Assembly: GCA_964511095.1 (NCBI GenBank)
Contig: CAZEEF010000002.1
Location: 1-31,148 of the forward strand
Direction: 5' to 3'
Source: an uncultured Coxiellaceae bacterium
Lineage (GTDB): Bacteria > Pseudomonadota > Gammaproteobacteria > DSM-16500
DNA: 31,148 nucleotides
The number at the start of each line of letters is the position of its first letter. The first letter of the stretch is position 1. Positions 331 to 10,249 of this stretch are shown here, in pieces. A model generated the notes under the pieces. It was not told where the DNA came from and searched no databases. It saw only the letters and a list, made by a program, of their open reading frames with translations. Made by a program: the position numbers and the translations under genes.

Positions 331-359
331 TTGTATTTTATTACACGACAAATTACGCT
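331..359 (+). promoter_or_regulatory. Possible sigma70 promoter upstream of rfbF
   Basis: TTGTAT (331-336), 17 nt spacer, TACGCT (354-359), preceded by an A-rich tract in the 130 nt intergenic gap. Weak match, in AT-rich DNA. Confidence 0.25.
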
Positions 360-393
360 AACGCTTTTTGCAGCACAAATTCAGGATCCATTG

Positions 394-1158
394 ATGAAAG
401 CAGTCATACTAGCAGGTGGTTTAGGCACCCGAATCAGCGAAGAAACCGCTATTCGTCCTAAACCCATGGTTGAAATCGGAGGAAAACCCATCCTCTGGCA
501 TATCATGAAAATCTATTCTTCCTTTAATATTCATGACTTTGTAATCTGTCTTGGTTACAAAGGCTATATCATCAAAGAATATTTCGCGAATTACTTTCTA
601 CATACCTCAGACGTCACTTTTAATATAGCCCAGAATGCCATGGAAGTTCATCAAGGCAATGCTGAGCCTTGGAAGGTCACTCTGGTGGACACCGGCGAAC
701 ACACCATGACAGGCGGGCGCTTGAAAAAAGTGGCCAGGTATCTTGATGATGATTTTTGCTTAACCTACGGCGATGGTGTCGCTGACGTTAATATCGATGA
801 ATTAATCAAATTTCACCGACAACACGGTCGTTTGGCAACCATGACAGCGACACAACCTCCCGGTCGATTTGGCTCCCTCTCTTTGAAAGGTGAAACGGTT
901 TCTGGGTTTCGTGAAAAACCGGATGGAGATGGTGGTTGGATTAATGGAGGTTTTTTTGTATTATCTCCGAAAGTTATTGATTATATTAAAGATGATTCAA
1001 CACTTTGGGAGCGTGAACCCCTGGAACAATTAGCAAATGACGGTCAACTGTCTGCTCATCTACACCAAGGTTTCTGGCAACCCATGGATACCTTGCGCGA
1101 TAAAACTTTTTTAGAAGAACTTTGGATCAGTGGTAAGGCGCCATGGAAGATTTGGTAA
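394..1158 (+). CDS. rfbF: Glucose-1-phosphate cytidylyltransferase
   Basis: [44 protein letters not shown] and terminal APWKIW are typical of RfbF/DdhA. Start moved to ATG 394 (AGGA at 383-386) from the track's TTG 331. Confidence 0.95.
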
Positions 1159-2216
1159 AATTTTGGAAAGGCAAAAATGTACTTATCACTGGACATACCG
1201 GTTTTAAGGGAAGTTGGCTGACGCTTTGGCTTTCCGAACTACAAGCCAATGTGGTAGGATATGCGCAAAATCCGCCCACTGAGATCAATTTATTTGACCT
1301 CACTCAAGCGAAAACAAGATTAAAAGAAGATATTCGGCAGGACATACGTGATTTTGATGCATTGAATCTTGTCATAAAAAACCATCAACCTGAGATTATT
1401 TTTCATATGGCAGCACAACCGTTGGTTCGTTATTCCTATGAGAACCCTGTTGAAACCTATGCCACGAATGTGATGGGAACGGTTAATTTACTGGAAGCCG
1501 TTAGACAAAATAATTGTGTCAAAACAATTGTTAATGTCACAACGGATAAGTGTTACGAAAACAAAGAATGGCATTGGGGATATCGTGAAGATGAACCCAT
1601 GGGCGGGCATGATCCTTATAGTAATAGCAAAGGGTGTGCAGAATTGGTAACAAGTGCCTATAGAAAGTCTTATTTTGGTGCTAACAATAAAGTAGGTCTG
1701 GCGTCAGCTCGAGCTGGAAATGTGATCGGTGGGGGAGATTGGGCGTTAGATCGTCTTATTCCTGATCTCATTATGGCGTGTATTAGGAACGAAACGGTCA
1801 ATATCCGATATCCAAACGCCATTAGACCTTGGCAGCATGTATTGGAGCCATTATCAGGTTATTTGCATTTGGCAAAAGCTTTGCATGAACAACCTGCAGT
1901 ATTTGCTGAAGCGTGGAATTTTGGCCCAGATCCTTTGGATGCGAAACCTGTCAGATGGCTTGCGGATGAAATGATTAAATTATGGGGTGGAACAAATCGC
2001 TGGGAATGTGTGAATTCGGACGTTCATGAAGCCACTTATCTTAAGCTCGATTGTTCAAAAGCAAACGCAAAATTGAATTGGTCAGCTAAATGGGATATTC
2101 AACAAGCGCTTAAAGCCACCGTAGACTGGTATCACGCATATCACCAAAAGAAAGATATGCAACAATTTACTGTGCAGCAAATTCATGCATATATGAACTC
2201 ATCTTTTAAAGGGTAG
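1143..2216 (+). CDS. rfbG: CDP-glucose 4,6-dehydratase
   Basis: [61 protein letters not shown]; directly follows rfbF. Confidence 0.95.
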
Positions 2217-2226
2217 GAAAAAGACA

Positions 2227-3447
2227 ATGAAAGAAAATTATTTAAATGTTCCTTACGGTAAAACAGTCCACGGTGAAGAAGAAATTGAAGCGGTGGTGAA
2301 AGTATTACGCACGTCGACACAGATGGGTTTGCATGTGCGCGAAATGGAAAACAAAGTCGCTGCACAATTTGCGAAAAAACACGGTATTATGGTTAACTCC
2401 GGATCGAGCGCAAATTATTTGGCGATTGAAATTTTAGATTTACCGGCAGGTTCTGAAGTCATTACACCCGTTTTAACATTTTCAACCACCGTGGCTCCTT
2501 TAGTGAAAAATGGTCTGGTTCCTGTTTTTATCGATGTTGAACCCGGCACATTTAATATTGATGCCAATAAAGTGGAAGCGATGATTACACCCAATACGCG
2601 GTTGATGATGATTCCTAATTTATTAGGTAACTTGCCTGACTGGAAAAAATTGCGTGAAATTGCGGATCGTCACAATTTGATTGTCATAGAAGATTCCGCA
2701 GACACCCTCGGCGCAACCATTGCTGGCGAATCTGTGGGTAAAATGACAGACGTCAGTACCACCAGTTTTTATGGTTCTCATGTGATTAATTGCGCGGGTA
2801 ATGGCGGTATGCTGTGTGTCAATACCGATCAGCTTGCCAATCGCGCAAAATTATTGCGAAGCTGGGGTAGAAGTTCTTCGTTATTTGTTGAATCGGAAGC
2901 CATTGAAAATCGGTTTAACGTTCAAGTCGATGGAATGGATTATGATGCTAAATTTCTTTTTGAAGCATTAGGATATAACTGGGAACCTTCTGAAATGGGT
3001 GCGGCATTTGGTTTGGTCCAACTGAACAAATTACAAAATAATATTTCACTTCGTGAAGATGCTTTCAAAAAACATACGGAATTTTTTAGTCGATTTCAGG
3101 AATGGTTTATTTTACCAAAACAATTACCACAATCGCGAACAGGCTGGTTGGCTTTTGCATTAACCTTGAAAAACAATGCGCCGTTTACGCGTAAAGAATT
3201 ACAAATCTTTCTGGAAAAACGTAACATTCAAACCCGTACGGTATTCACAGGCAATATTTTACGTCAGCCTGGATTTAAAAATATTAAACACCGTGAAAGT
3301 CCGGAAGGATATGCCTATGCAGATCAAGTCATGCGTGGTGGAATGTTGTTAGGTTGTCATCATGGCTTAACGCCTGAAATGATGGCTCACATTCACCAAT
3401 CCTTTGAAGAATTTGCAAAATCTTATGTGGGGTTGGCTATTAGCTAA
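2227..3447 (+). CDS. PLP/PMP-dependent NDP-4-keto-6-deoxyhexose 3-dehydratase, RfbH/ColD-like (DegT/DnrJ fold)
   Basis: NSGSSAN, IEDSADTLG, SFYGSHVIN with His at the position of the usual Schiff-base Lys, LRSWGR, GYN..P.EM.AA.GL.QL; follows rfbFG. Confidence 0.8.
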   Translation: MKENYLNVPYGKTVHGEEEIEAVVKVLRTSTQMGLHVREMENKVAAQFAKKHGIMVNSGSSANYLAIEILDLPAGSEVITPVLTFSTTVAPLVKNGLVPVFIDVEPGTFNIDANKVEAMITPNTRLMMIPNLLGNLPDWKKLREIADRHNLIVIEDSADTLGATIAGESVGKMTDVSTTSFYGSHVINCAGNGGMLCVNTDQLANRAKLLRSWGRSSSLFVESEAIENRFNVQVDGMDYDAKFLFEALGYNWEPSEMGAAFGLVQLNKLQNNISLREDAFKKHTEFFSRFQEWFILPKQLPQSRTGWLAFALTLKNNAPFTRKELQIFLEKRNIQTRTVFTGNILRQPGFKNIKHRESPEGYAYADQVMRGGMLLGCHHGLTPEMMAHIHQSFEEFAKSYVGLAIS

Positions 3448-4760: not shown

Positions 4761-5804
4761 ATGCTGACCACTGATCTGGAATATATTTTAAAAGCCACAA
4801 CGCCTTTATGGGAAGGGTTGCGCAACCGGTCTATTTTCATTTCGGGCGGAACTGGATTTTTCGGTACGTGGTTGTTAGAAAGTATTGTTTGGGCTAATCG
4901 GCACTTGAATTTAAATACTTCAGCGATGGTTTTAACGCGAAATCCTGCTGCGTTTCAACAAAAATGTCCGCATCTTTTTAGAGAATCCTGTTTGGAATTT
5001 TATGAAGGTGATATTAAAAATTTTACATTTCCCGACAAAAAATTTTCTCACATCATTCATGCTGCAACGGATGCGAGTGCAGCGTTAAATAAAAATAATC
5101 CGATTGCGATGTACAAAACCATTTTAGATGGTACACAGCGAATTTTAGAATTTTCAGTCAGAGCGGATGTCTCTCATTTTTTATTTTTAAGCTCCGGTGC
5201 CGTTTATGGAAGACAGCCGCTAGAGCTCAGTCATATTTCAGAAGATTATCCCGCTTCTTTTGAATGCCATTCTTCAGCGTATGCCAGTGGAAAACAGGCC
5301 GCTGAAAACCTATGTCACTTGTATGCCAAACAACATGGAATAGCGATTAAAATCGCACGCTGTTTTGCATTTGTAGGACCGTACTTGCCTTTGGATATCC
5401 ACTTTGCGATAGGAAATTTTATTCGTGATGGTTTAAATGGCAAATCTATCCATATTGGAGGAGACGGGACGCCATTACGATCCTATTTATACGCGGCAGA
5501 TTTGATGATTTGGTTGTTGACCATATTATTTAAAGGCGAGTCGCTTCGGCCGTACAACGTCGGATCGGATGAAGCATATACTATTGCAGAGATTGCAGGC
5601 TTGGTTGCACACAATTTTGGTCCAACGGTTGAAGTTAAAATTGCGAAAGCGGCGGATCCCACAGTCCTGCCTGAACGTTATATTCCTGACATCACACGAG
5701 CGCATCGAGAATTGGGATTGTCACCACTGATCGGGTTATCTGAAGCGATTAAACGAACAAAAACATGGTATCAACAAAAGCAAGTAGAGGTTGTCAATGA
5801 TTAA
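4761..5804 (+). CDS. NAD-dependent epimerase/dehydratase (extended SDR)
   Basis: ISGGTGFFG, SSGAVYG, YASGK (YxxxK), RCFAFVGP, GDGTPLRSYLY. Confidence 0.88.
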   Translation: MLTTDLEYILKATTPLWEGLRNRSIFISGGTGFFGTWLLESIVWANRHLNLNTSAMVLTRNPAAFQQKCPHLFRESCLEFYEGDIKNFTFPDKKFSHIIHAATDASAALNKNNPIAMYKTILDGTQRILEFSVRADVSHFLFLSSGAVYGRQPLELSHISEDYPASFECHSSAYASGKQAAENLCHLYAKQHGIAIKIARCFAFVGPYLPLDIHFAIGNFIRDGLNGKSIHIGGDGTPLRSYLYAADLMIWLLTILFKGESLRPYNVGSDEAYTIAEIAGLVAHNFGPTVEVKIAKAADPTVLPERYIPDITRAHRELGLSPLIGLSEAIKRTKTWYQQKQVEVVND

Positions 5805-7605
5805 AGTCAGTGATTACATCGCGAATTTTCTTAGCGATTCCGGTATACGCCACGTTTACATGCTCACAGGCGGTGGTGCAATGCATTTAAATAATTCATT
5901 AGGAAAACATCCTCATCTAAAAGTGATTTTTAATCATCATGAACAAGCGTCAGCGATGGCAGCAGAAAGTCATGCGCGTTTAACTAACGAATTGCCTGTC
6001 ATTAATGTGACAACCGGTCCGGGTGGTATTAATACATTAAATGGCGTTTTTGGTGCCTGGACGGATTCTATTCCCATGTTTGTTTTATCAGGGCAAGTCC
6101 GTTATGACACAACTATCGCGAGCACAGGTTTTAATATCCGACAGTTAGGTGACCAGGAATGTGAAATTATTCCTTGCGTAAAACCGATTACCAAATATGC
6201 AGTGAGTGTAGAAGATCCCTTATTTATTAAATATCACTTACAAAAAGCATTGTTTCTCGCCAAACAGGGAAGACCTGGTCCTGTTTGGGTCGATGTACCG
6301 ATGAATGTGCAAGGTACTTTTATCGATGAAACCAAATTAGTTGAATTCGATCCCTCAACGTATTTCCCAAAAATCCCATTGGTTGAAACCGCTAAAATCA
6401 ATTCTATTTTAGAAAAAATAGCAGAAGCTAAACGACCTCTTATTATTGCGGGTGGCGGCGTTCGAATTTCAGGCGCGCATGCTTTATTTTTAAAATTTAT
6501 TGAAAAGTTGAATATTCCAGTCACTACCGCATGGAATGCGCATGATGTGTTACACGATGATCATCCATTATATATCGGGCGTCCAGGGACAGTGGGTGAC
6601 CGCGCTGGCAATTTCGCAGTACAAAATTGCGATCTGCTATTAATATTAGGAAGTCGTTTGAACGTTCGCCAAATTGGTTATAACTGGAAAACATTCGCAA
6701 GAGCGGCTTTTAAAATAATGGTAGATATTGATCCTCTAGAGATGATCAAACCTACGTTACAAATTGATATGCCAGTTCATGCGCATCTTGAAGATTTCAT
6801 GACAAAAATGATGACCGGACTCGATCAAAAAGTCATAAACCCAAAATCAGAATGGATAGACTGGTGTCTTGAAAGAAAAAAACGTTACCCCGTCGTATTG
6901 GATGAATATTGGAAAAATGAAACAGCCATCAATCCTTATTGCTTTATGAAAACACTCAGTGAGCATTTGCCAGAAGGGCAAGTCATTGTGACGGGTGATG
7001 GCACTGCGTGTGTGACTTCTTTTCAAGCGATGCAGCTTAAAAAGGGCCAGCGACTTTATACCAACTCAGGTTCTGCTTCGATGGGGTATGATTTACCCGC
7101 CGCGATTGGTGCCTGTGTTGCTTCAGGGTATCAACGAATTATCTGTTTTGCTGGGGATGGCAGCATCCAGCAAAATATACAAGAATTAGCAACGATTTCT
7201 TATAATCGTTATCCCATTAAACTTTTTGTATTAAATAATAATGGATATCATTCCATCCGACAGACACAGACCAATTTTTTTGGAACACCTTTAGTGGGTG
7301 TGGGTCCTGAAAGTGGGTTAGGTTTTCCGAATTTTGAAAAATTAGCACATGCGTATGATTTACCTTATGTTCGTTTAGAGCAGCATGCAGAAATGAATAA
7401 TCTGTTTGAGTCATTTCTACAAGAAGAGGGACCTGGTATCTGTGAAGTGATGCTCACTCTCGAGCAGCAATTTGCCCCGAAATCCAGTTCGAAAAGACTG
7501 GCTTGTGGACGGATGGTATCAAAACCGTTAGAAGACCTCGCGCCATTTTTAAGTCGGGAAGAGTTGACAGAAAATATGTTAATCGATTTGATACCAGAGG
7601 AATAA
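5797..7605 (+). CDS. Thiamine-diphosphate-dependent enzyme, acetolactate-synthase fold (YerE-like carboligase candidate)
   Basis: HHEQASAMAAE, TTGPG, RPGPVWVDVP, GSMG-like ASMGYDLPAAIGA and GDG...NN ThDP motif. ATG 5797 has GAGG 6 nt upstream. Confidence 0.88.
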   Translation: MIKVSDYIANFLSDSGIRHVYMLTGGGAMHLNNSLGKHPHLKVIFNHHEQASAMAAESHARLTNELPVINVTTGPGGINTLNGVFGAWTDSIPMFVLSGQVRYDTTIASTGFNIRQLGDQECEIIPCVKPITKYAVSVEDPLFIKYHLQKALFLAKQGRPGPVWVDVPMNVQGTFIDETKLVEFDPSTYFPKIPLVETAKINSILEKIAEAKRPLIIAGGGVRISGAHALFLKFIEKLNIPVTTAWNAHDVLHDDHPLYIGRPGTVGDRAGNFAVQNCDLLLILGSRLNVRQIGYNWKTFARAAFKIMVDIDPLEMIKPTLQIDMPVHAHLEDFMTKMMTGLDQKVINPKSEWIDWCLERKKRYPVVLDEYWKNETAINPYCFMKTLSEHLPEGQVIVTGDGTACVTSFQAMQLKKGQRLYTNSGSASMGYDLPAAIGACVASGYQRIICFAGDGSIQQNIQELATISYNRYPIKLFVLNNNGYHSIRQTQTNFFGTPLVGVGPESGLGFPNFEKLAHAYDLPYVRLEQHAEMNNLFESFLQEEGPGICEVMLTLEQQFAPKSSSKRLACGRMVSKPLEDLAPFLSREELTENMLIDLIPEE

Positions 7606-7607
7606 AA

Positions 7608-8285
7608 ATGCAAAAAACAGTATTTCTTACAGGTAGTACCGGTGAAATTGGTCAGGCCATTTATCAGAAATTTCTTCTGAATGGGTACCATATGATTGCA
7701 CCGACGCGATCCGAAATGGATTTAGAAAAAAGCGACGATATTGAACGTTTTTTAAATTCCATTCATCAACCGGTTGATGTTTTTATACATTGCGCCGGTT
7801 TTAATGAGCCGAAAACGATCGCAAACATTGCGAAAGAAGATATCCATAAAACAATGCAAATCAATTCGTTTTCGTTTTATGACATGAGTCATTTTTTGGT
7901 AAAAAATAAAAAAATGGCTGAGGATGGGCACATTTTAGGGGTTTCTTCTATTTATGGATTTTTAGGTCGACCGGGTCGTTTTTCCTATTGCGCCGCAAAA
8001 CATTGCGGAAACGGCATGATCAAAACCATAGCGCTTGAGTTAGGTTCGTTAAATATAAAAGTCAATACGATCGCGCCTGGTTTTGTCGACACCAAAATGA
8101 CCAGCAAAAATAATAGTCCTGAAAAAATTGCGACGTTTAAACAAAAAATTCCACTGGCTCGTTTAGCTTCTACAAGCGATATTGCTAATGTAGCCTATTT
8201 TTTATGTTCACCAGAAAATCAATATTTAACAGGCCAGGAAATTATTGTGGATGGTGGTTATTCGATTGGAGGATTTGAATCATGA
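7608..8285 (+). CDS. Short-chain dehydrogenase/reductase (FabG-like classical SDR)
   Basis: MQKTVFLTGSTGEIG, YCAAK, VNTIAPGFVDT, VDGG. Start moved to ATG 7608, just after the ThDP enzyme stop. Confidence 0.9.
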   Translation: MQKTVFLTGSTGEIGQAIYQKFLLNGYHMIAPTRSEMDLEKSDDIERFLNSIHQPVDVFIHCAGFNEPKTIANIAKEDIHKTMQINSFSFYDMSHFLVKNKKMAEDGHILGVSSIYGFLGRPGRFSYCAAKHCGNGMIKTIALELGSLNIKVNTIAPGFVDTKMTSKNNSPEKIATFKQKIPLARLASTSDIANVAYFLCSPENQYLTGQEIIVDGGYSIGGFES

Positions 8286-9373
8286 TGCCTGAGCGTATTT
8301 CTATTCAATCGGGAAGTAAAACGTATCAAGTCGATTTTTTATCAGCGCGTTCTGATATTATCGATTATTTGAAAACACTTAAAAATCCCGTTGTGATTAC
8401 GGATAGACAAATTGAAAATTTGTATCCTGATTTTATCAATGAAATAAAAACTTTCTCGCCGACTTATGCAATTATTGCGAGTGAAGAAAATAAAACACTG
8501 TCGGGCGCAGAATATATTTTGAAACAATTGCAATCCTTAAATGCGACGAAATCGACAACGATTGTGGCCATTGGTGGCGGTATCATTCAGGATATCGTTT
8601 CATTTTGTGCGCATATTTATTATCGCGGTTTGCCTTTTGTTTTTATTCCGACGACATTATTAGCGATGTGCGATAGCTGCATTGGCGGTAAAGCGGGTCT
8701 GAATTTTAATGGTTATAAAAATCAACTGGGTGCATTTCATCCCCCTGAAAAAATTCTTATTTGGTCGGGTTTTGTCAATTCACTTCCGGATGATGCTATA
8801 TATTCGGGTTATGGCGAAATCATTAAGCTCATGTTAATTGAAAGTGAAGAGGCTTATTTAAAAGTCAAAAATACAATAGAAACCGAAGGATTCAAAAATT
8901 CAAAATTATTGGATCATATTTATCAATCATTAGTGATTAAAAAACGTTTTATTGAGGAAGACGAGTTCGATAATGGTGTACGTCGTATTTTGAATTACGG
9001 CCATACACTGGGGCATGCACTTGAGCTTGCAACCCATTATGAAGTACCGCATGGTATTGCGGTGGCGCGTGGGATTGATATGGTGAATTTTATTGCCTGT
9101 GAGAAGGGGCTATTACCGAAAGCCGTTTACGATAATATCCGAACATTTATTCAAACCTATTTTCACTGCGATATGAAGCCCGCTGTTTCGGCGGATGTAT
9201 TGCTGAAAAATGCGGGAAAAGACAAGAAGGTTGTAGAAGGGAAGCTCAATATGATTCTGATGGAAAATTTTGGTCAATTAAACGTCAAACCTGTTTTACT
9301 TGACCAGGCGCTTAATGATATAGTGAGCGCCTATTTAAAAAATAGCCAGGACTTATATTCCTACAGTGTATGA
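8282..9373 (+). CDS. 3-dehydroquinate synthase-like protein (sugar phosphate cyclase superfamily)
   Basis: AIGGGIIQD, YRG, PTTLLA..DS.IGGK, KN..GAF, EIIK, R.ILNYGHTLGHALE, HG.AV, DKK: NAD- and metal-binding residues of AroB-type enzymes are present. Confidence 0.88.
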   Translation: MMPERISIQSGSKTYQVDFLSARSDIIDYLKTLKNPVVITDRQIENLYPDFINEIKTFSPTYAIIASEENKTLSGAEYILKQLQSLNATKSTTIVAIGGGIIQDIVSFCAHIYYRGLPFVFIPTTLLAMCDSCIGGKAGLNFNGYKNQLGAFHPPEKILIWSGFVNSLPDDAIYSGYGEIIKLMLIESEEAYLKVKNTIETEGFKNSKLLDHIYQSLVIKKRFIEEDEFDNGVRRILNYGHTLGHALELATHYEVPHGIAVARGIDMVNFIACEKGLLPKAVYDNIRTFIQTYFHCDMKPAVSADVLLKNAGKDKKVVEGKLNMILMENFGQLNVKPVLLDQALNDIVSAYLKNSQDLYSYSV

Positions 9374-9418
9374 ACGATAGAGATTACGTAAAAGCAATTG
9401 TGAAAAAAGGAGAGTAGA

Positions 9419-10249
9419 ATGAACAAGTTAGAACAAGAAATGACTGCATTGCTGAATGATTTAAAAGCAAACTTTCATGTTACCGGTATTAAAGCTGAAT
9501 TTGAAGCCGAAGGGACACGATTGGAAGAAGCGATGCGTCTTAAGGATGTTACGGCAGCGGCGGGCTTGGGATTAAATATCAAAATTGGTGGCTGTGAAGC
9601 GATGAAAGACATGCTGGACGCCGTCAGTTTAGGTGCTGAACGTATTATTGCACCCATGGTCGAAACGCCTTATGCCTTGAAAAAATTTATTAAAGCAGCG
9701 CAACTTATTTATCGTGATTCTCTGGATCAGGTTGATTTACTGGTTAACATTGAAACCGTGACTGCTTATGAAAATTTCAAAGAAATGTTAAAAATTCCTG
9801 AAATCAAATATTTAAATGGTATTGTGGTGGGTCGTGTTGATATGGTGGGTTCATTAGACATGGGTCGCGATACGATTAATGGTCAAAAAGTTTTAGATCT
9901 TACTTTGGATTTGGCGAAGCAAGCAAAAGATAAAGGTTTAAGCGTCGTTGTTGGTGGTGGTGTGTCTGTTGATTCCATCCCATTCTTTAAAGCATTTCCC
10001 AAAGGTCATTTAGATCGCTTTGAAACTCGAAAAGTGATTTTTAGTTGCCCTCAAGCGATTAATAATCCGGAAGAGGCGTTTATTAAAGCCGTTAAATTTG
10101 AATTGATGTGGCTGAATAATAAGCGGGCTCATTATAGTTCGATTGCGCGTGAGGATGAAGACAGGATTATAATGATGGAAAATCGCTATAAGAAGTCTCT
10201 CGAAAAAATAAAAAACAACGCCTTTGAAAATACTGAAGTAGTTGTATAA
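9419..10249 (+). CDS. HpcH/HpaI aldolase / citrate lyase beta family protein
   Basis: PMVETPYAL, NIET, GRVDM match the Mg-dependent class II pyruvate aldolase barrel; GGAG ribosome binding site upstream. Confidence 0.75.
   Translation: MNKLEQEMTALLNDLKANFHVTGIKAEFEAEGTRLEEAMRLKDVTAAAGLGLNIKIGGCEAMKDMLDAVSLGAERIIAPMVETPYALKKFIKAAQLIYRDSLDQVDLLVNIETVTAYENFKEMLKIPEIKYLNGIVVGRVDMVGSLDMGRDTINGQKVLDLTLDLAKQAKDKGLSVVVGGGVSVDSIPFFKAFPKGHLDRFETRKVIFSCPQAINNPEEAFIKAVKFELMWLNNKRAHYSSIAREDEDRIIMMENRYKKSLEKIKNNAFENTEVVV

What the first reader, a model, noticed from the sequence alone, without database searches (positions are those of the whole stretch)
2227..3447. RfbH-position enzyme has the dehydratase His but no [2Fe-2S] cysteines: possible E3-independent CDP-sugar 3-deoxygenation
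Seen: SFYGSH places His (codon 2779-2781) where aminotransferases have Lys. After WGR (2863) the sequence is SSSLFVESEAIENRF, with no CxC-x7-C motif. The protein has only three scattered Cys, and no rfbI/ascD reductase lies in the window. Established: E1 (RfbH/AscC) needs that Fe-S cluster plus the E3 reductase, whereas ColD has the His, no Fe-S, and uses glutamate on a GDP-sugar. Inference: ColD-type chemistry on a CDP-glucose-derived substrate.
Basis: partly seen in the sequence, partly recalled or inferred. Interest (0 to 1): 0.6.

Follow-up and report, generated by a model that had tools for sequence, protein, structure and literature searches.

The report
Iron-sulfur-free CDP-sugar 3-dehydratase
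This gene encodes a relative of the textbook sugar-deoxygenating enzyme E1 that keeps the catalytic histidine but has lost the iron-sulfur site and has no reductase partner. It belongs to a large untested branch that probably removes a sugar's 3-hydroxyl the simpler, glutamate-driven way that ColD does.

Summary
ORF 2227-3447 encodes a 406-aa DegT-fold protein whose closest solved relative is E1 (AscC/DdhC/RfbH). His185 (codon 2779-2781) aligns with E1 His220. E1's cysteine loop WGRDCYCAPGCDNTC reads WGRSSSLFVESEAIEN here, and the first E1 ligand position is Ala158. The gene follows rfbF and rfbG and precedes a YerE-like ThDP enzyme. No E3-type reductase lies in the window or in the 89%-complete genome.

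This is not a one-off. Relatives of 59-82% identity in Legionella-like bacteria, Bacteroidota and Alphaproteobacteria keep the same cysteine-free loop, which is among the most conserved segments of the protein. On a tree the query sits in a 53-row, nearly cysteine-free clade nested among Fe-S forms. ColD-like enzymes branch outside.

Legionella micdadei makes the 3,6-dideoxy sugar yersiniose A. Its only histidine-type enzyme is this one, and it has no canonical RfbH.

Best reading: an active CDP-4-keto-6-deoxyglucose 3-dehydratase that works without Fe-S or E3, most likely by ColD-type glutamate recycling. The chemistry is inferred, not shown. I found no paper describing it. This scan has met the same variant before on other DNA.

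The parts
2227..3447 (+). E1-like PMP-dependent sugar 3-dehydratase without Fe-S ligands (406 aa, P0001)
   Evidence: Pfam DegT_DnrJ_EryC1 scores 263 bits. NCBIfam RfbH PRK15407 scores 312.7 bits, below its 423 cut-off. The best PDB sequence match is E1 3bcx at 4e-63. The AF2 model has pLDDT 95.8 and its best fold match is E1 at TM 0.88.
2779..2781 (+). Codon of His185, the catalytic base that replaces the Schiff-base Lys
   Evidence: CAT at 2779-2781. It aligns with E1 His220 and is invariant in 62 aligned family members.
2863..2916 (+). Former Fe-S loop, W213-F230 (WGRSSSLFVESEAIENRF), with no Cys
   Evidence: It aligns with E1 WGRDCYCAPGCDNTCKKRF. Its conservation is 0.94 against a protein mean of 0.78, rank 13 of 389 windows of 18 residues.
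2698..2700 (+). Codon of Ala158, at the position of the second Cys of E1's IEDCC motif; I take this to be the ligand Cys193, a number recalled from memory
   Evidence: E1 'EDCCD' aligns with 'EDSAD'. Cys at this column is common in all groups, ColD-like enzymes included, so on its own it does not indicate a cluster.
331..1158 (+). rfbF, glucose-1-phosphate cytidylyltransferase (the true start is probably near 394)
   Evidence: TIGR02623 scores 469 bits against a cut-off of 300; the match begins at residue 22.
1143..2216 (+). rfbG, CDP-glucose 4,6-dehydratase, which makes the substrate
   Evidence: TIGR02622 scores 511.6 bits against a cut-off of 278.
5791..7605 (+). ThDP enzyme (acetolactate-synthase fold, YerE-like), the likely consumer of the 4-keto-3,6-dideoxy product
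   Evidence: All three TPP_enzyme domains are present. YerE, ErwE and MMAR_2332 all use CDP-4-keto-3,6-dideoxyglucose as acceptor (PMC9306805).
3450..5804 (+). GtrA-like protein, polyprenyl-phosphate GT2 and an extended SDR, all co-conserved with the dehydratase in Legionella-like loci
   Evidence: Pfam GtrA_DPMS_TM, Glycos_transf_2 and Epimerase. The same genes lie next to the homologue in L003-L008 and L029 and in L. micdadei (L050).

Best explanation
The gene encodes an active PMP-dependent 3-dehydratase. It takes CDP-4-keto-6-deoxy-D-glucose, made by the RfbF and RfbG genes just upstream, and produces CDP-4-keto-3,6-dideoxy-D-glucose. That product is the acceptor for the ThDP-dependent branching enzyme further down the operon.

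Shown: the E1 fold, the catalytic His, the PMP-binding residues, the lack of cluster ligands, the lack of an E3, and the pathway context.

Inferred: PMP forms a ketimine with C4 of the sugar. His185 removes the C4' proton and the 3-OH leaves. With no [2Fe-2S] cluster to accept electrons, the sugar-ene adduct is released by hydrolysis as PLP plus an enamine, which tautomerises and hydrolyses to the 4-keto-3,6-dideoxy sugar and ammonia. PLP is then returned to PMP by an amino acid donor, most likely L-glutamate, as in ColD. Glutamate, not NADH passed through E3, would therefore be the reductant. The lineage arose from Fe-S-bearing E1-type ancestors by loss of the cysteines.
For: (1) Residues. 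His185 aligns with E1 His220. All loop cysteines are replaced, and the ED-x-C position is Ala.

(2) The Cys-free loop is fixed. The window protein and 27 homologues of 59-82% identity from Legionella-like Gammaproteobacteria, Bacteroidota, Sphingomonas and Rhodospirillaceae all carry it. It is as conserved as the catalytic segment.

(3) Tree of 111 sequences. ColD-like enzymes branch outside a 93-row clade (SH-aLRT 97) that holds the Fe-S forms. Nested within that clade is a 53-row clade (SH-aLRT 95), 50 rows of which have no loop Cys, and it contains the query.

(4) Context. The gene follows rfbF and rfbG here and in most related loci. A Bacteroidota locus reads GT2-rfbF-rfbG-RmlC-like-RmlD-like-dehydratase, which is an ascarylose-type set lacking only E3. 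Natural fusions join Cys-less homologues to RmlC-like, RmlD-like or 4,6-dehydratase domains, never to Fer2 or FNR domains.

(5) No E3. In the window's genome the only Fer2 domain is in NuoG, and the only FNR-type protein is a 257-aa Fre-like reductase without Fer2. The complete Legionella sp. D16C41 genome has Fer2 only in NuoG. Of 45 genomes carrying the enzyme that I scanned for Fer2, 37 have no E3-sized Fer2 ORF. tblastn of E3 against the window and all fetched loci, including about 30 homologue loci with up to 10 kb of flank, finds nothing beside the dehydratase.

(6) Organism chemistry. L. micdadei LPS contains yersiniose A, a 3,6-dideoxy-4-C-branched hexose (Sonesson and Jantzen 1992, cited in PMC7867332). 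Its genome (G674) has rfbF, this enzyme and a YerE-like ThDP enzyme in one cluster, with rfbG 18 kb away. It has no canonical RfbH, and its other DegT proteins are Lys-type.

(7) Precedent. ColD and the C. jejuni HS:5 C3-dehydratase perform this chemistry with PLP and L-glutamate, without Fe-S (PMC8987622; PMC10680097).
Against: No biochemical data exist for any member of this clade.

The enzyme is genealogically E1-like, not ColD-like. According to the 2022 review, E1 itself showed no aminotransferase activity when given PLP and glutamate. Regeneration of PMP by glutamate would therefore have had to be gained or regained.

I could not identify a glutamate-binding signature. The Ser184-His185 pair is shared with ColD-like enzymes (41/52 and 12/14, against Ala in 31/35 Fe-S forms), but this is a clade-level pattern and is not significant in an independent-pairs test.

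The window's genome is 89% complete. L. micdadei and 7 other carriers do have an unlinked 320-355-aa Fer2-FNR protein.

The cluster-ligand numbering C193/C251/C253/C261 is recalled from memory. The E1 structure paper was not available.
Confidence: 0.6

Rival explanations
1. It is a 3-dehydratase that still needs external reducing equivalents but receives them by another route. Candidates are reduced flavin from the Fre-like NAD(P)H-flavin reductase, a housekeeping Fer2-FNR protein, or hydride transfer from a neighbouring SDR. Any of these would reduce the PMP-glucoseen adduct directly, without an enzyme-bound cluster.
For: The window's genome encodes a Fre-like reductase of 257 aa, and related genomes have 240-260-aa equivalents. 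L. micdadei and 7 other carriers have an unlinked Fer2-FAD-NAD protein. SpnQ shows that non-dedicated reductases can serve this family. E1 was reported not to use PLP and glutamate.
Against: SpnQ still needs its own [2Fe-2S] cluster as the electron entry point, and this protein has no ligands for one. No reductase is co-conserved. Neighbours differ between lineages: an extended SDR in Legionella-like loci, RmlC/RmlD-like genes in Bacteroidota, and only a small membrane protein in the orphan loci. 37 of 45 carriers lack any E3-sized Fer2 protein. None of the ten fusion proteins I scanned joins the dehydratase to a flavin or Fer2 domain.
Confidence: 0.17
2. It does not deoxygenate C3. Instead it performs another PMP/PLP reaction on the CDP-4-keto sugar, such as transamination to a 4-amino sugar or an epimerisation or isomerisation. 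The branched sugar made by the operon would then keep its 3-OH.
For: E1 variants and SpnQ can be diverted to transamination. [quoted passage not shown] The final sugar made by the window's operon is unknown.
Against: The Schiff-base Lys is His in every member, which is the hallmark of the dehydratases. L. micdadei, which makes a 3,6-dideoxy sugar, has no other candidate 3-dehydratase. The ThDP branching enzymes characterised so far use the 3,6-dideoxy-4-keto acceptor. The ascarylose-type gene sets and fusions fit 3-deoxygenation.
Confidence: 0.1
3. It is a non-catalytic or regulatory DegT-family protein, as some database names suggest ('cell wall biosynthesis regulatory PLP-dependent protein', 'NarL family transcriptional regulator').
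For: These names are attached to close homologues in public records.
Against: The cofactor and catalytic positions are invariant across 62 family members: S58, G59, D156, S180, H185, N251, R276 and R337. The model is a full, high-confidence fold-type-I enzyme. Identity of 70-82% across phyla and operon coupling to sugar-nucleotide enzymes indicate selection on catalysis. The protein contains no DNA-binding domain.
Confidence: 0.02

Closest known systems
E1 (AscC / DdhC / RfbH), CDP-6-deoxy-L-threo-D-glycero-4-hexulose 3-dehydrase of Yersinia pseudotuberculosis and Salmonella (PDB 3BCX)
   Same: It is the closest sequence match (4e-63) and fold match (TM 0.88, 33% identity). Both have a catalytic His in place of Lys and the same extra loop after WGR. 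Both sit in a CDP-glucose context after rfbF and rfbG, with the same predicted substrate and product.
   Different: All loop cysteines are replaced, and the ED-x-C position is Ala. The protein scores 312.7 bits against the 423-bit equivalog cut-off. No E3 partner is present. Ser184 replaces the Ala that precedes the His in most Fe-S forms. Electron transfer from NADH through E3 is therefore not possible as described for E1.
ColD (WbdK), GDP-4-keto-6-deoxy-D-mannose 3-dehydratase of E. coli O55/O111 and others; also the C. jejuni HS:5 C3-dehydratase
   Same: Catalytic His preceded by Ser. No Fe-S cluster and no reductase partner. This is the only established reductase-free mechanism for C3 deoxygenation: PLP is released and PMP is regenerated from L-glutamate.
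   Different: ColD acts on GDP-linked manno sugars in GDP-mannose pathways. It matches the query more weakly (1e-42, 26% identity) and ColD-like enzymes form a separate clade outside the E1-like group. It lacks the WGR...RF loop; ColD-like sequences read HGW there.
SpnQ, TDP-4-keto-2,6-dideoxy-D-glucose 3-dehydratase (spinosyn forosamine pathway)
   Same: A His-type PMP enzyme with no dedicated E3 gene in its cluster.
   Different: SpnQ keeps a [2Fe-2S] cluster and depends on general ferredoxin or flavodoxin reductase pairs. It acts on TDP-2,6-dideoxy sugars.
Yersiniose A pathway of Y. pseudotuberculosis O:6 and Pseudomonas WCS417 (DdhA-DdhD, YerE, YerF)
   Same: The same logic: cytidylyltransferase, 4,6-dehydratase, 3-dehydratase, then a ThDP enzyme and a reductase.
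   Different: Those clusters include ddhD (E3) and a canonical DdhC. The Legionella-type clusters have neither, and they add GtrA, a polyprenyl-phosphate GT2 and a GT-C-like membrane protein.

Membership tests
E1 / RfbH / AscC / DdhC (Fe-S-dependent CDP-sugar 3-dehydrase) | Fold-type-I DegT/aspartate-aminotransferase fold with PMP-binding residues | tested here: met
   Pfam PF01041 scores 263 bits. The AF2 model has pLDDT 95.8 and matches 3bcx at TM 0.88. D156, S180 and R337 are invariant.
E1 / RfbH / AscC / DdhC (Fe-S-dependent CDP-sugar 3-dehydrase) | His in place of the Schiff-base Lys (E1 His220) | tested here: met
   His185 aligns with His220. The codon is CAT at 2779-2781.
E1 / RfbH / AscC / DdhC (Fe-S-dependent CDP-sugar 3-dehydrase) | Four Cys ligands of the [2Fe-2S] cluster (one in ED-x-C, three in the WGR-D-C-x-C...C loop) | tested here: not met
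   The sequence reads EDSAD and WGRSSSLFVESEAIENRF, with no Cys in the loop. The same holds in all 27 close homologues.
E1 / RfbH / AscC / DdhC (Fe-S-dependent CDP-sugar 3-dehydrase) | Dedicated E3 reductase (AscD/DdhD/RfbI; Fer2 + FAD + NAD domains) | tested here: not met
   None is found in the window or in the 89%-complete genome. None is present in the complete Legionella sp. D16C41 genome. 37 of 45 carrier genomes lack an E3-sized Fer2 ORF.
E1 / RfbH / AscC / DdhC (Fe-S-dependent CDP-sugar 3-dehydrase) | Score above the curated NCBIfam equivalog cut-off (PRK15407, 423 bits) | tested here: not met
   The score is 312.7 bits. In a sample of 400 class genomes, canonical RfbH proteins score 442-754 bits while this clade scores about 300-333.
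E1 / RfbH / AscC / DdhC (Fe-S-dependent CDP-sugar 3-dehydrase) | CDP-glucose pathway context (rfbF, rfbG) | tested here: met
   TIGR02623 (469 bits) and TIGR02622 (511 bits) match the genes directly upstream. The same holds in most related loci.
ColD-type Fe-S-free 3-dehydratase | Catalytic His, with no Fe-S ligands and no reductase partner | tested here: met
ColD-type Fe-S-free 3-dehydratase | Phylogenetic membership of the ColD clade and a GDP-mannose pathway context | tested here: not met
   ColD-like sequences form separate clades outside the 93-row E1-like group. The context here is CDP-glucose, and no GDP-mannose 4,6-dehydratase equivalog lies next to the gene.
ColD-type Fe-S-free 3-dehydratase | PMP regenerated from PLP by L-glutamate, with ammonia and 2-oxoglutarate released | not testable with these tools
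   This needs an enzyme assay. The only indirect hint is the Ser-His pair shared with ColD-like enzymes, and that pattern is not statistically independent.
SpnQ-type 3-dehydratase | [2Fe-2S] cluster served by general ferredoxin or flavodoxin reductases; TDP-2,6-dideoxy substrate | tested here: not met
   There are no cluster ligands, and the context is CDP-glucose rather than TDP.
DegT/DnrJ/EryC1 sugar aminotransferases | Schiff-base Lys | tested here: not met
   The residue is His185. Lys-type paralogues of L. micdadei and the outgroup sequences read S-K or G-K at this position and lack the loop.

The most novel reading that the evidence does not exclude
A third mechanistic class of nucleotide-sugar 3-dehydratase: enzymes that descend from Fe-S-dependent E1 but have lost the cluster. 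The former cluster loop, now strictly conserved, acidic and serine-rich, would have been repurposed, for example to admit water or an amino donor, or to hold a different cofactor together with the clade-typical Cys377-His378. If so, CDP-3,6-dideoxyhexoses (yersiniose, ascarylose-type and longer-branched sugars) are made in many phyla without any radical or electron-transfer step. The chemistry might be neither strictly ColD-like nor E1-like.
Probability: 0.15. Interest if true: 0.8.

Novelty: new variant of a known kind. Interest (0 to 1): 0.55.

Why it matters
E1/E3 is the textbook case of a PMP-dependent, iron-sulfur-mediated radical deoxygenation, and it is presented as the route to CDP-3,6-dideoxyhexoses. 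This finding indicates that a large and widespread branch of E1 homologues has dispensed with both the cluster and the reductase. The branch includes Legionella micdadei, whose LPS contains a 3,6-dideoxy sugar.

If these enzymes run on glutamate as ColD does, three things follow. Annotation of 'RfbH' genes and pathway predictions that require ddhD/rfbI need revising. The evolutionary relation between one-electron and two-electron solutions to the same reaction becomes testable within one protein lineage, because the tree forces at least eight gains or losses of the cysteines. A simpler, oxygen-insensitive catalyst for making CDP-4-keto-3,6-dideoxyglucose, the shared acceptor for branched-sugar ThDP enzymes, would also become available.

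Tried and rejected
I therefore obtained gene contexts of the more distant representatives (P0122-P0270) only from domain fusions, not from neighbourhoods.
- The E1 structure paper (PMC2782820) is not held. The cluster-ligand numbering therefore rests on memory plus the alignment.
- NCBIfam has no dedicated E3/RfbI model. An rfb-linked E3 from G321 (L046:4931-6004) scored only against BenC, AntC and Fre models. I used that protein and Pfam Fer2 as probes instead.
- I tested whether Ser184, His378 or non-Pro183 track the lack of Fe-S independently of phylogeny. With only 5 independent contrasts the tests were not significant, so I dropped these as evidence.
- I checked whether PDB 9wvy ('putative NDP-4-keto-6-deoxyglucose-3-dehydratase') belongs to the clade. 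It stays at about 1e-40 to 1e-44 against the query and against two other representatives, so it is not a close relative.
- I looked for a conserved redox partner next to 'orphan' Bacteroidota copies. The only conserved neighbour is a roughly 125-aa membrane protein.
- Model coordinates are not exposed, so I could not measure the distance from the loop to the cofactor.
- Five literature searches found no description of a Cys-less CDP-type E1.
Full report
**The observation**

ORF 2227-3447 (+) encodes a 406-aa protein, P0001. It has the DegT/DnrJ/EryC1 fold (Pfam, 263 bits). Its best NCBIfam model is RfbH (PRK15407), but at 312.7 bits it falls well below the 423-bit equivalog cut-off. Against PDB sequences the best match is E1, the CDP-6-deoxy-L-threo-D-glycero-4-hexulose 3-dehydrase of Yersinia (3bcx, 4e-63). 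ColD follows at 1e-42.

The residue alignment puts His185 (CAT at 2779-2781) on E1 His220, the residue changed in the 3bb8 H220K mutant. E1 'IEDCCDALG' aligns with 'IEDSADTLG'. E1 'WGRDCYCAPGCDNTCKKRF' aligns with 'WGRSSSLFVES-EAIENRF'. The protein has three Cys (189, 197, 377) and none of them lies in the loop. An AlphaFold2 model built on a 62-sequence alignment is very confident (pLDDT 95.8). Its best structural match is again E1, with TM 0.88 and 33% identity.

**Surroundings**

The gene lies 10 bases after rfbG and 2 bases before a GtrA-like gene. Upstream are rfbF (TIGR02623, 469 bits) and rfbG (TIGR02622, 511 bits). Downstream come these genes:
- GtrA
- an ArnC/PgfS-like GT2
- an extended SDR
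- an acetolactate-synthase-fold ThDP enzyme
- an SDR
- an AroB-related enzyme
- an HpcH-family aldolase
- a PMT_2-type membrane glycosyltransferase

The combination of a ThDP enzyme, a reductase and an aldolase matches the published 'unifying scheme' for acyl-branched sugars (yersiniose, erwiniose, caryophyllose, gastriose). In that scheme every ThDP enzyme uses CDP-4-keto-3,6-dideoxy-D-glucose as acceptor (PMC9306805). The product expected of a 3-dehydratase at this position is therefore exactly what the next enzymes need.

**No E3**

No window ORF carries Fer2, FAD_binding_6 or NAD_binding_1 domains. In the whole assembly (1.85 Mb, 89% complete) the only NAD_binding_1 hit is a 257-aa Fre-like flavin reductase without a ferredoxin domain. 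The only Fer2 hit is NuoG.

As a probe I took an E3-architecture protein (Fer2 plus FNR, 357 aa) that lies directly upstream of rfbF in a genome with a canonical RfbH scoring 740 bits. Genomes with canonical RfbH mostly gave full-length hits to it. Genomes with the query's type gave only hits to the C-terminal part, in Fre-sized frames, with two exceptions: G114 and G214.

A Pfam Fer2 census of 45 genomes that carry the enzyme, drawn from two Legionella-like families, gave this result:
- 37 have only a NuoG-sized frame or nothing.
- 8 have an additional 320-355-aa Fer2 ORF. In the seven draft assemblies it is on a different contig from the dehydratase, and in the single-contig L. micdadei genome it lies 256 kb away.

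The complete genome of Legionella sp. D16C41 has Fer2 only in NuoG. tblastn of E3 against the window and all fetched loci, including about 30 homologue loci with up to 10 kb of flank, found nothing beside the dehydratase.

**The variant is a clade, not an accident**

The word-indexed search of the 5.8-billion-protein set was capped at 8,000 scored candidates, all of which matched at E <= 0.001. The 120 best are 75-95% identical, and the few that carry names are from Legionella or Tatlockia. A scan of species-representative genomes returned about 30 loci at 59-82% identity from Legionella-like Gammaproteobacteria, Flavobacteriales, Chitinophagaceae, Sphingomonas and Rhodospirillaceae. All 27 full-length homologues keep SFY[GA]SH and the Cys-free loop.

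The loop's mean conservation is 0.94 against 0.78 for the whole protein, rank 13 of 389 windows. That is on a par with the catalytic-His segment, so the loop is under strong constraint. The enzyme is also more conserved than its neighbours: 68-82% against 42-76% for rfbF and rfbG. It is present in 20 of 86 genomes of the window's own order and in 27 of 204 genomes of the Legionella family.

**Position in the family**

An exhaustive HMMER search of 1.84 billion cluster representatives gave 989 proteins at E <= 1e-30. I classified the top representatives by catalytic residue and loop cysteines and built a tree of 111 sequences rooted on Lys-type aminotransferases.
- ColD-like enzymes (HGW in place of WGR) branch outside.
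- A 93-row clade (SH-aLRT 97) contains the Fe-S forms as a grade.
- Nested within it, a 53-row clade (SH-aLRT 95) holds the query. It comprises 50 rows with no loop Cys and 3 rows with one or two.

Cys-less forms also occur elsewhere in the grade. Well-supported branches force at least 8 changes of this trait. On this rooting the query's lineage derives from Fe-S-bearing ancestors and is not a ColD relative.

Column statistics show that Cys at the ED-x-C position is common in all three groups, ColD-like included. It is therefore not diagnostic. What distinguishes the Fe-S forms is the loop Cys: 31 of 35 have it at the first loop position. The Cys-less clade shares Ser before the catalytic His with ColD-like enzymes (41/52 and 12/14, against Ala in 31/35 Fe-S forms). 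With only five independent contrasts this is not statistically independent of phylogeny, so I treat it only as a hint.

**Evidence that these proteins really deoxygenate C3**

1. A Bacteroidota locus reads GT2, rfbF, rfbG, RmlC-like epimerase, RmlD-like reductase, dehydratase. This is the ascarylose gene set minus E3.

2. Natural fusions join Cys-less homologues to RmlC-like plus RmlD-like domains (868 aa), to an RmlC-like domain, or to 4,6-dehydratase-like SDR domains. None of the ten fusion proteins I scanned has a Fer2 or FNR domain.

3. Legionella micdadei provides the strongest link. The title of Sonesson and Jantzen 1992 (cited in PMC7867332) states that yersiniose A is an LPS constituent of L. 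micdadei and L. maceachernii. Yersiniose A is 3,6-dideoxy-4-C-(1-hydroxyethyl)-D-xylo-hexose. Its genome shows the following:
   - One cluster holds rfbF, the Cys-less enzyme, GT2, an extended SDR, GtrA, a YerE-like ThDP enzyme and a 613-aa protein without a Pfam match (the window has a PMT_2-type GT-C of the same length at this position).
   - rfbG lies 18 kb away.
   - No protein reaches the RfbH cut-off; the best, at 332 bits, is this enzyme.
   - The two other DegT-family hits that reach E <= 1e-30 are Lys-type and lack the loop.

   The only candidate for the C3 deoxygenation that this organism demonstrably performs is therefore the Cys-less enzyme. L. micdadei does have one Fer2-FAD-NAD protein of 318 aa. 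It lies 256 kb away, after hemY and tehB genes and next to a cation-efflux gene, is only 29% identical to the rfb-linked E3, and is missing from its close relative G672 and from most other carriers.

**Mechanism**

According to the 2022 review of nucleotide-sugar dehydratases (PMC8987622), all three characterised 3-dehydratases start the same way. PMP forms a ketimine with the sugar, the His abstracts a proton, and the 3-OH is lost. They differ afterwards:
- E1 and SpnQ reduce the sugar-ene adduct through their [2Fe-2S] cluster, fed by E3 or by general reductases.
- ColD hydrolyses the adduct to PLP and an enamine, which becomes the 4-keto-3,6-dideoxy sugar plus ammonia. It then regenerates PMP from L-glutamate.

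The C. jejuni HS:5 enzyme works the same way as ColD (PMC10680097). Both established Fe-S-free enzymes act on GDP-sugars.

The protein here has no cluster ligands and no conserved redox partner, so the ColD route is the only established chemistry that fits. I give this about 0.6. The main reservation is that E1 itself was reported not to use PLP and glutamate. The capacity would therefore have had to be acquired along with the loss of the cluster, perhaps with the help of the remodelled and strongly conserved loop.

The rivals are:
- reduction by a non-cluster route, such as free reduced flavin from the Fre-like reductase or hydride from an SDR (0.17)
- a reaction other than deoxygenation (0.10)
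- a non-catalytic role (0.02)

**Novelty**

The review lists only E1, ColD and SpnQ as characterised. Yersiniose clusters described in Yersinia and Pseudomonas include ddhD. Five full-text searches found no description of a Cys-less, E3-less CDP-type enzyme, and no solved structure belongs to the clade. I rate it a new variant of a known kind.

This scan has noted the same variant before on other DNA (e1-2671643, e1-5083074, e1-4193327, e1-1121849). Those notes agree with what I found independently. The L. micdadei argument and the rooted tree are the parts tested here.

**Limits**

- No biochemistry exists for any member of the clade.
- The window's genome is incomplete.
- The representative set was drawn outward from the query, so clade sizes are not unbiased.

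Noticed in passing
P0128, P0178, P0233, P0237 (homologues found): Several homologues of 658-669 aa appear to carry an intein inserted at the conserved ED-x-C-D motif. The sequence there reads 'VHNCD', and in P0128 (the only one I scanned) Pfam finds Hint/Intein_splicing domains. The conserved Cys that serves as the first Fe-S ligand in E1 would be the +1 extein residue.
   Followed up: partly
L013:4245-9864 (Bacteroidetes MAG): A compact GT2-rfbF-rfbG-RmlC-like-RmlD-like-dehydratase run. This is an ascarylose-type CDP-3,6-dideoxy-L-hexose gene set with no E3.
   Followed up: partly
P0168, P0153, P0132, P0122, P0123, P0143: Natural fusions join Cys-less dehydratases to RmlC-like epimerase, RmlD-like reductase or 4,6-dehydratase-like SDR domains, reaching 868 aa with three domains. 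These are candidate single-polypeptide dideoxysugar synthases.
   Followed up: partly
window 5791-10249 compared with L050:13016-14752 (L. micdadei): There are two cluster types. The window, L008 and L029 share a divergent ThDP enzyme (63% identical among them, about 33% to the Tatlockia YerE-like one) plus an SDR and an AroB-related enzyme; an HpcH-aldolase match is seen only in L029. The L. micdadei type has only the YerE-like enzyme. The window probably makes a branch longer than yersiniose's C2.
   Followed up: partly
L015, L016, L019, L022, L024-L028 (Chitinophagaceae and other Bacteroidota): The dehydratase occurs as an 'orphan' at 68-71% identity with no rfbF or rfbG within 10 kb. Its only conserved neighbour is a small membrane protein of about 125 aa directly downstream. 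What substrate it sees there is unknown.
   Followed up: partly
Public records of close homologues: L. micdadei and other Legionella orthologues are annotated as 'NarL family transcriptional regulator' or 'cell wall biosynthesis regulatory PLP-dependent protein'. These are legacy misannotations of an enzyme.
   Followed up: no
window 2227-3447 compared with 331-2216, across loci L003-L031: The dehydratase is far more conserved across phyla (68-82%) than the adjacent rfbF (53-76%) and rfbG (42-58%). This suggests unusually strong constraint or separate horizontal transfer of this one gene.
   Followed up: no
L047 (G345:C1:4413000-4430000): Some genomes with a canonical, Cys-bearing RfbH have no E3 gene beside the rfb genes. 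Their best Fer2-FNR proteins lie elsewhere at 29-43% identity. E3 adjacency is therefore not universal even for Fe-S forms.
   Followed up: partly
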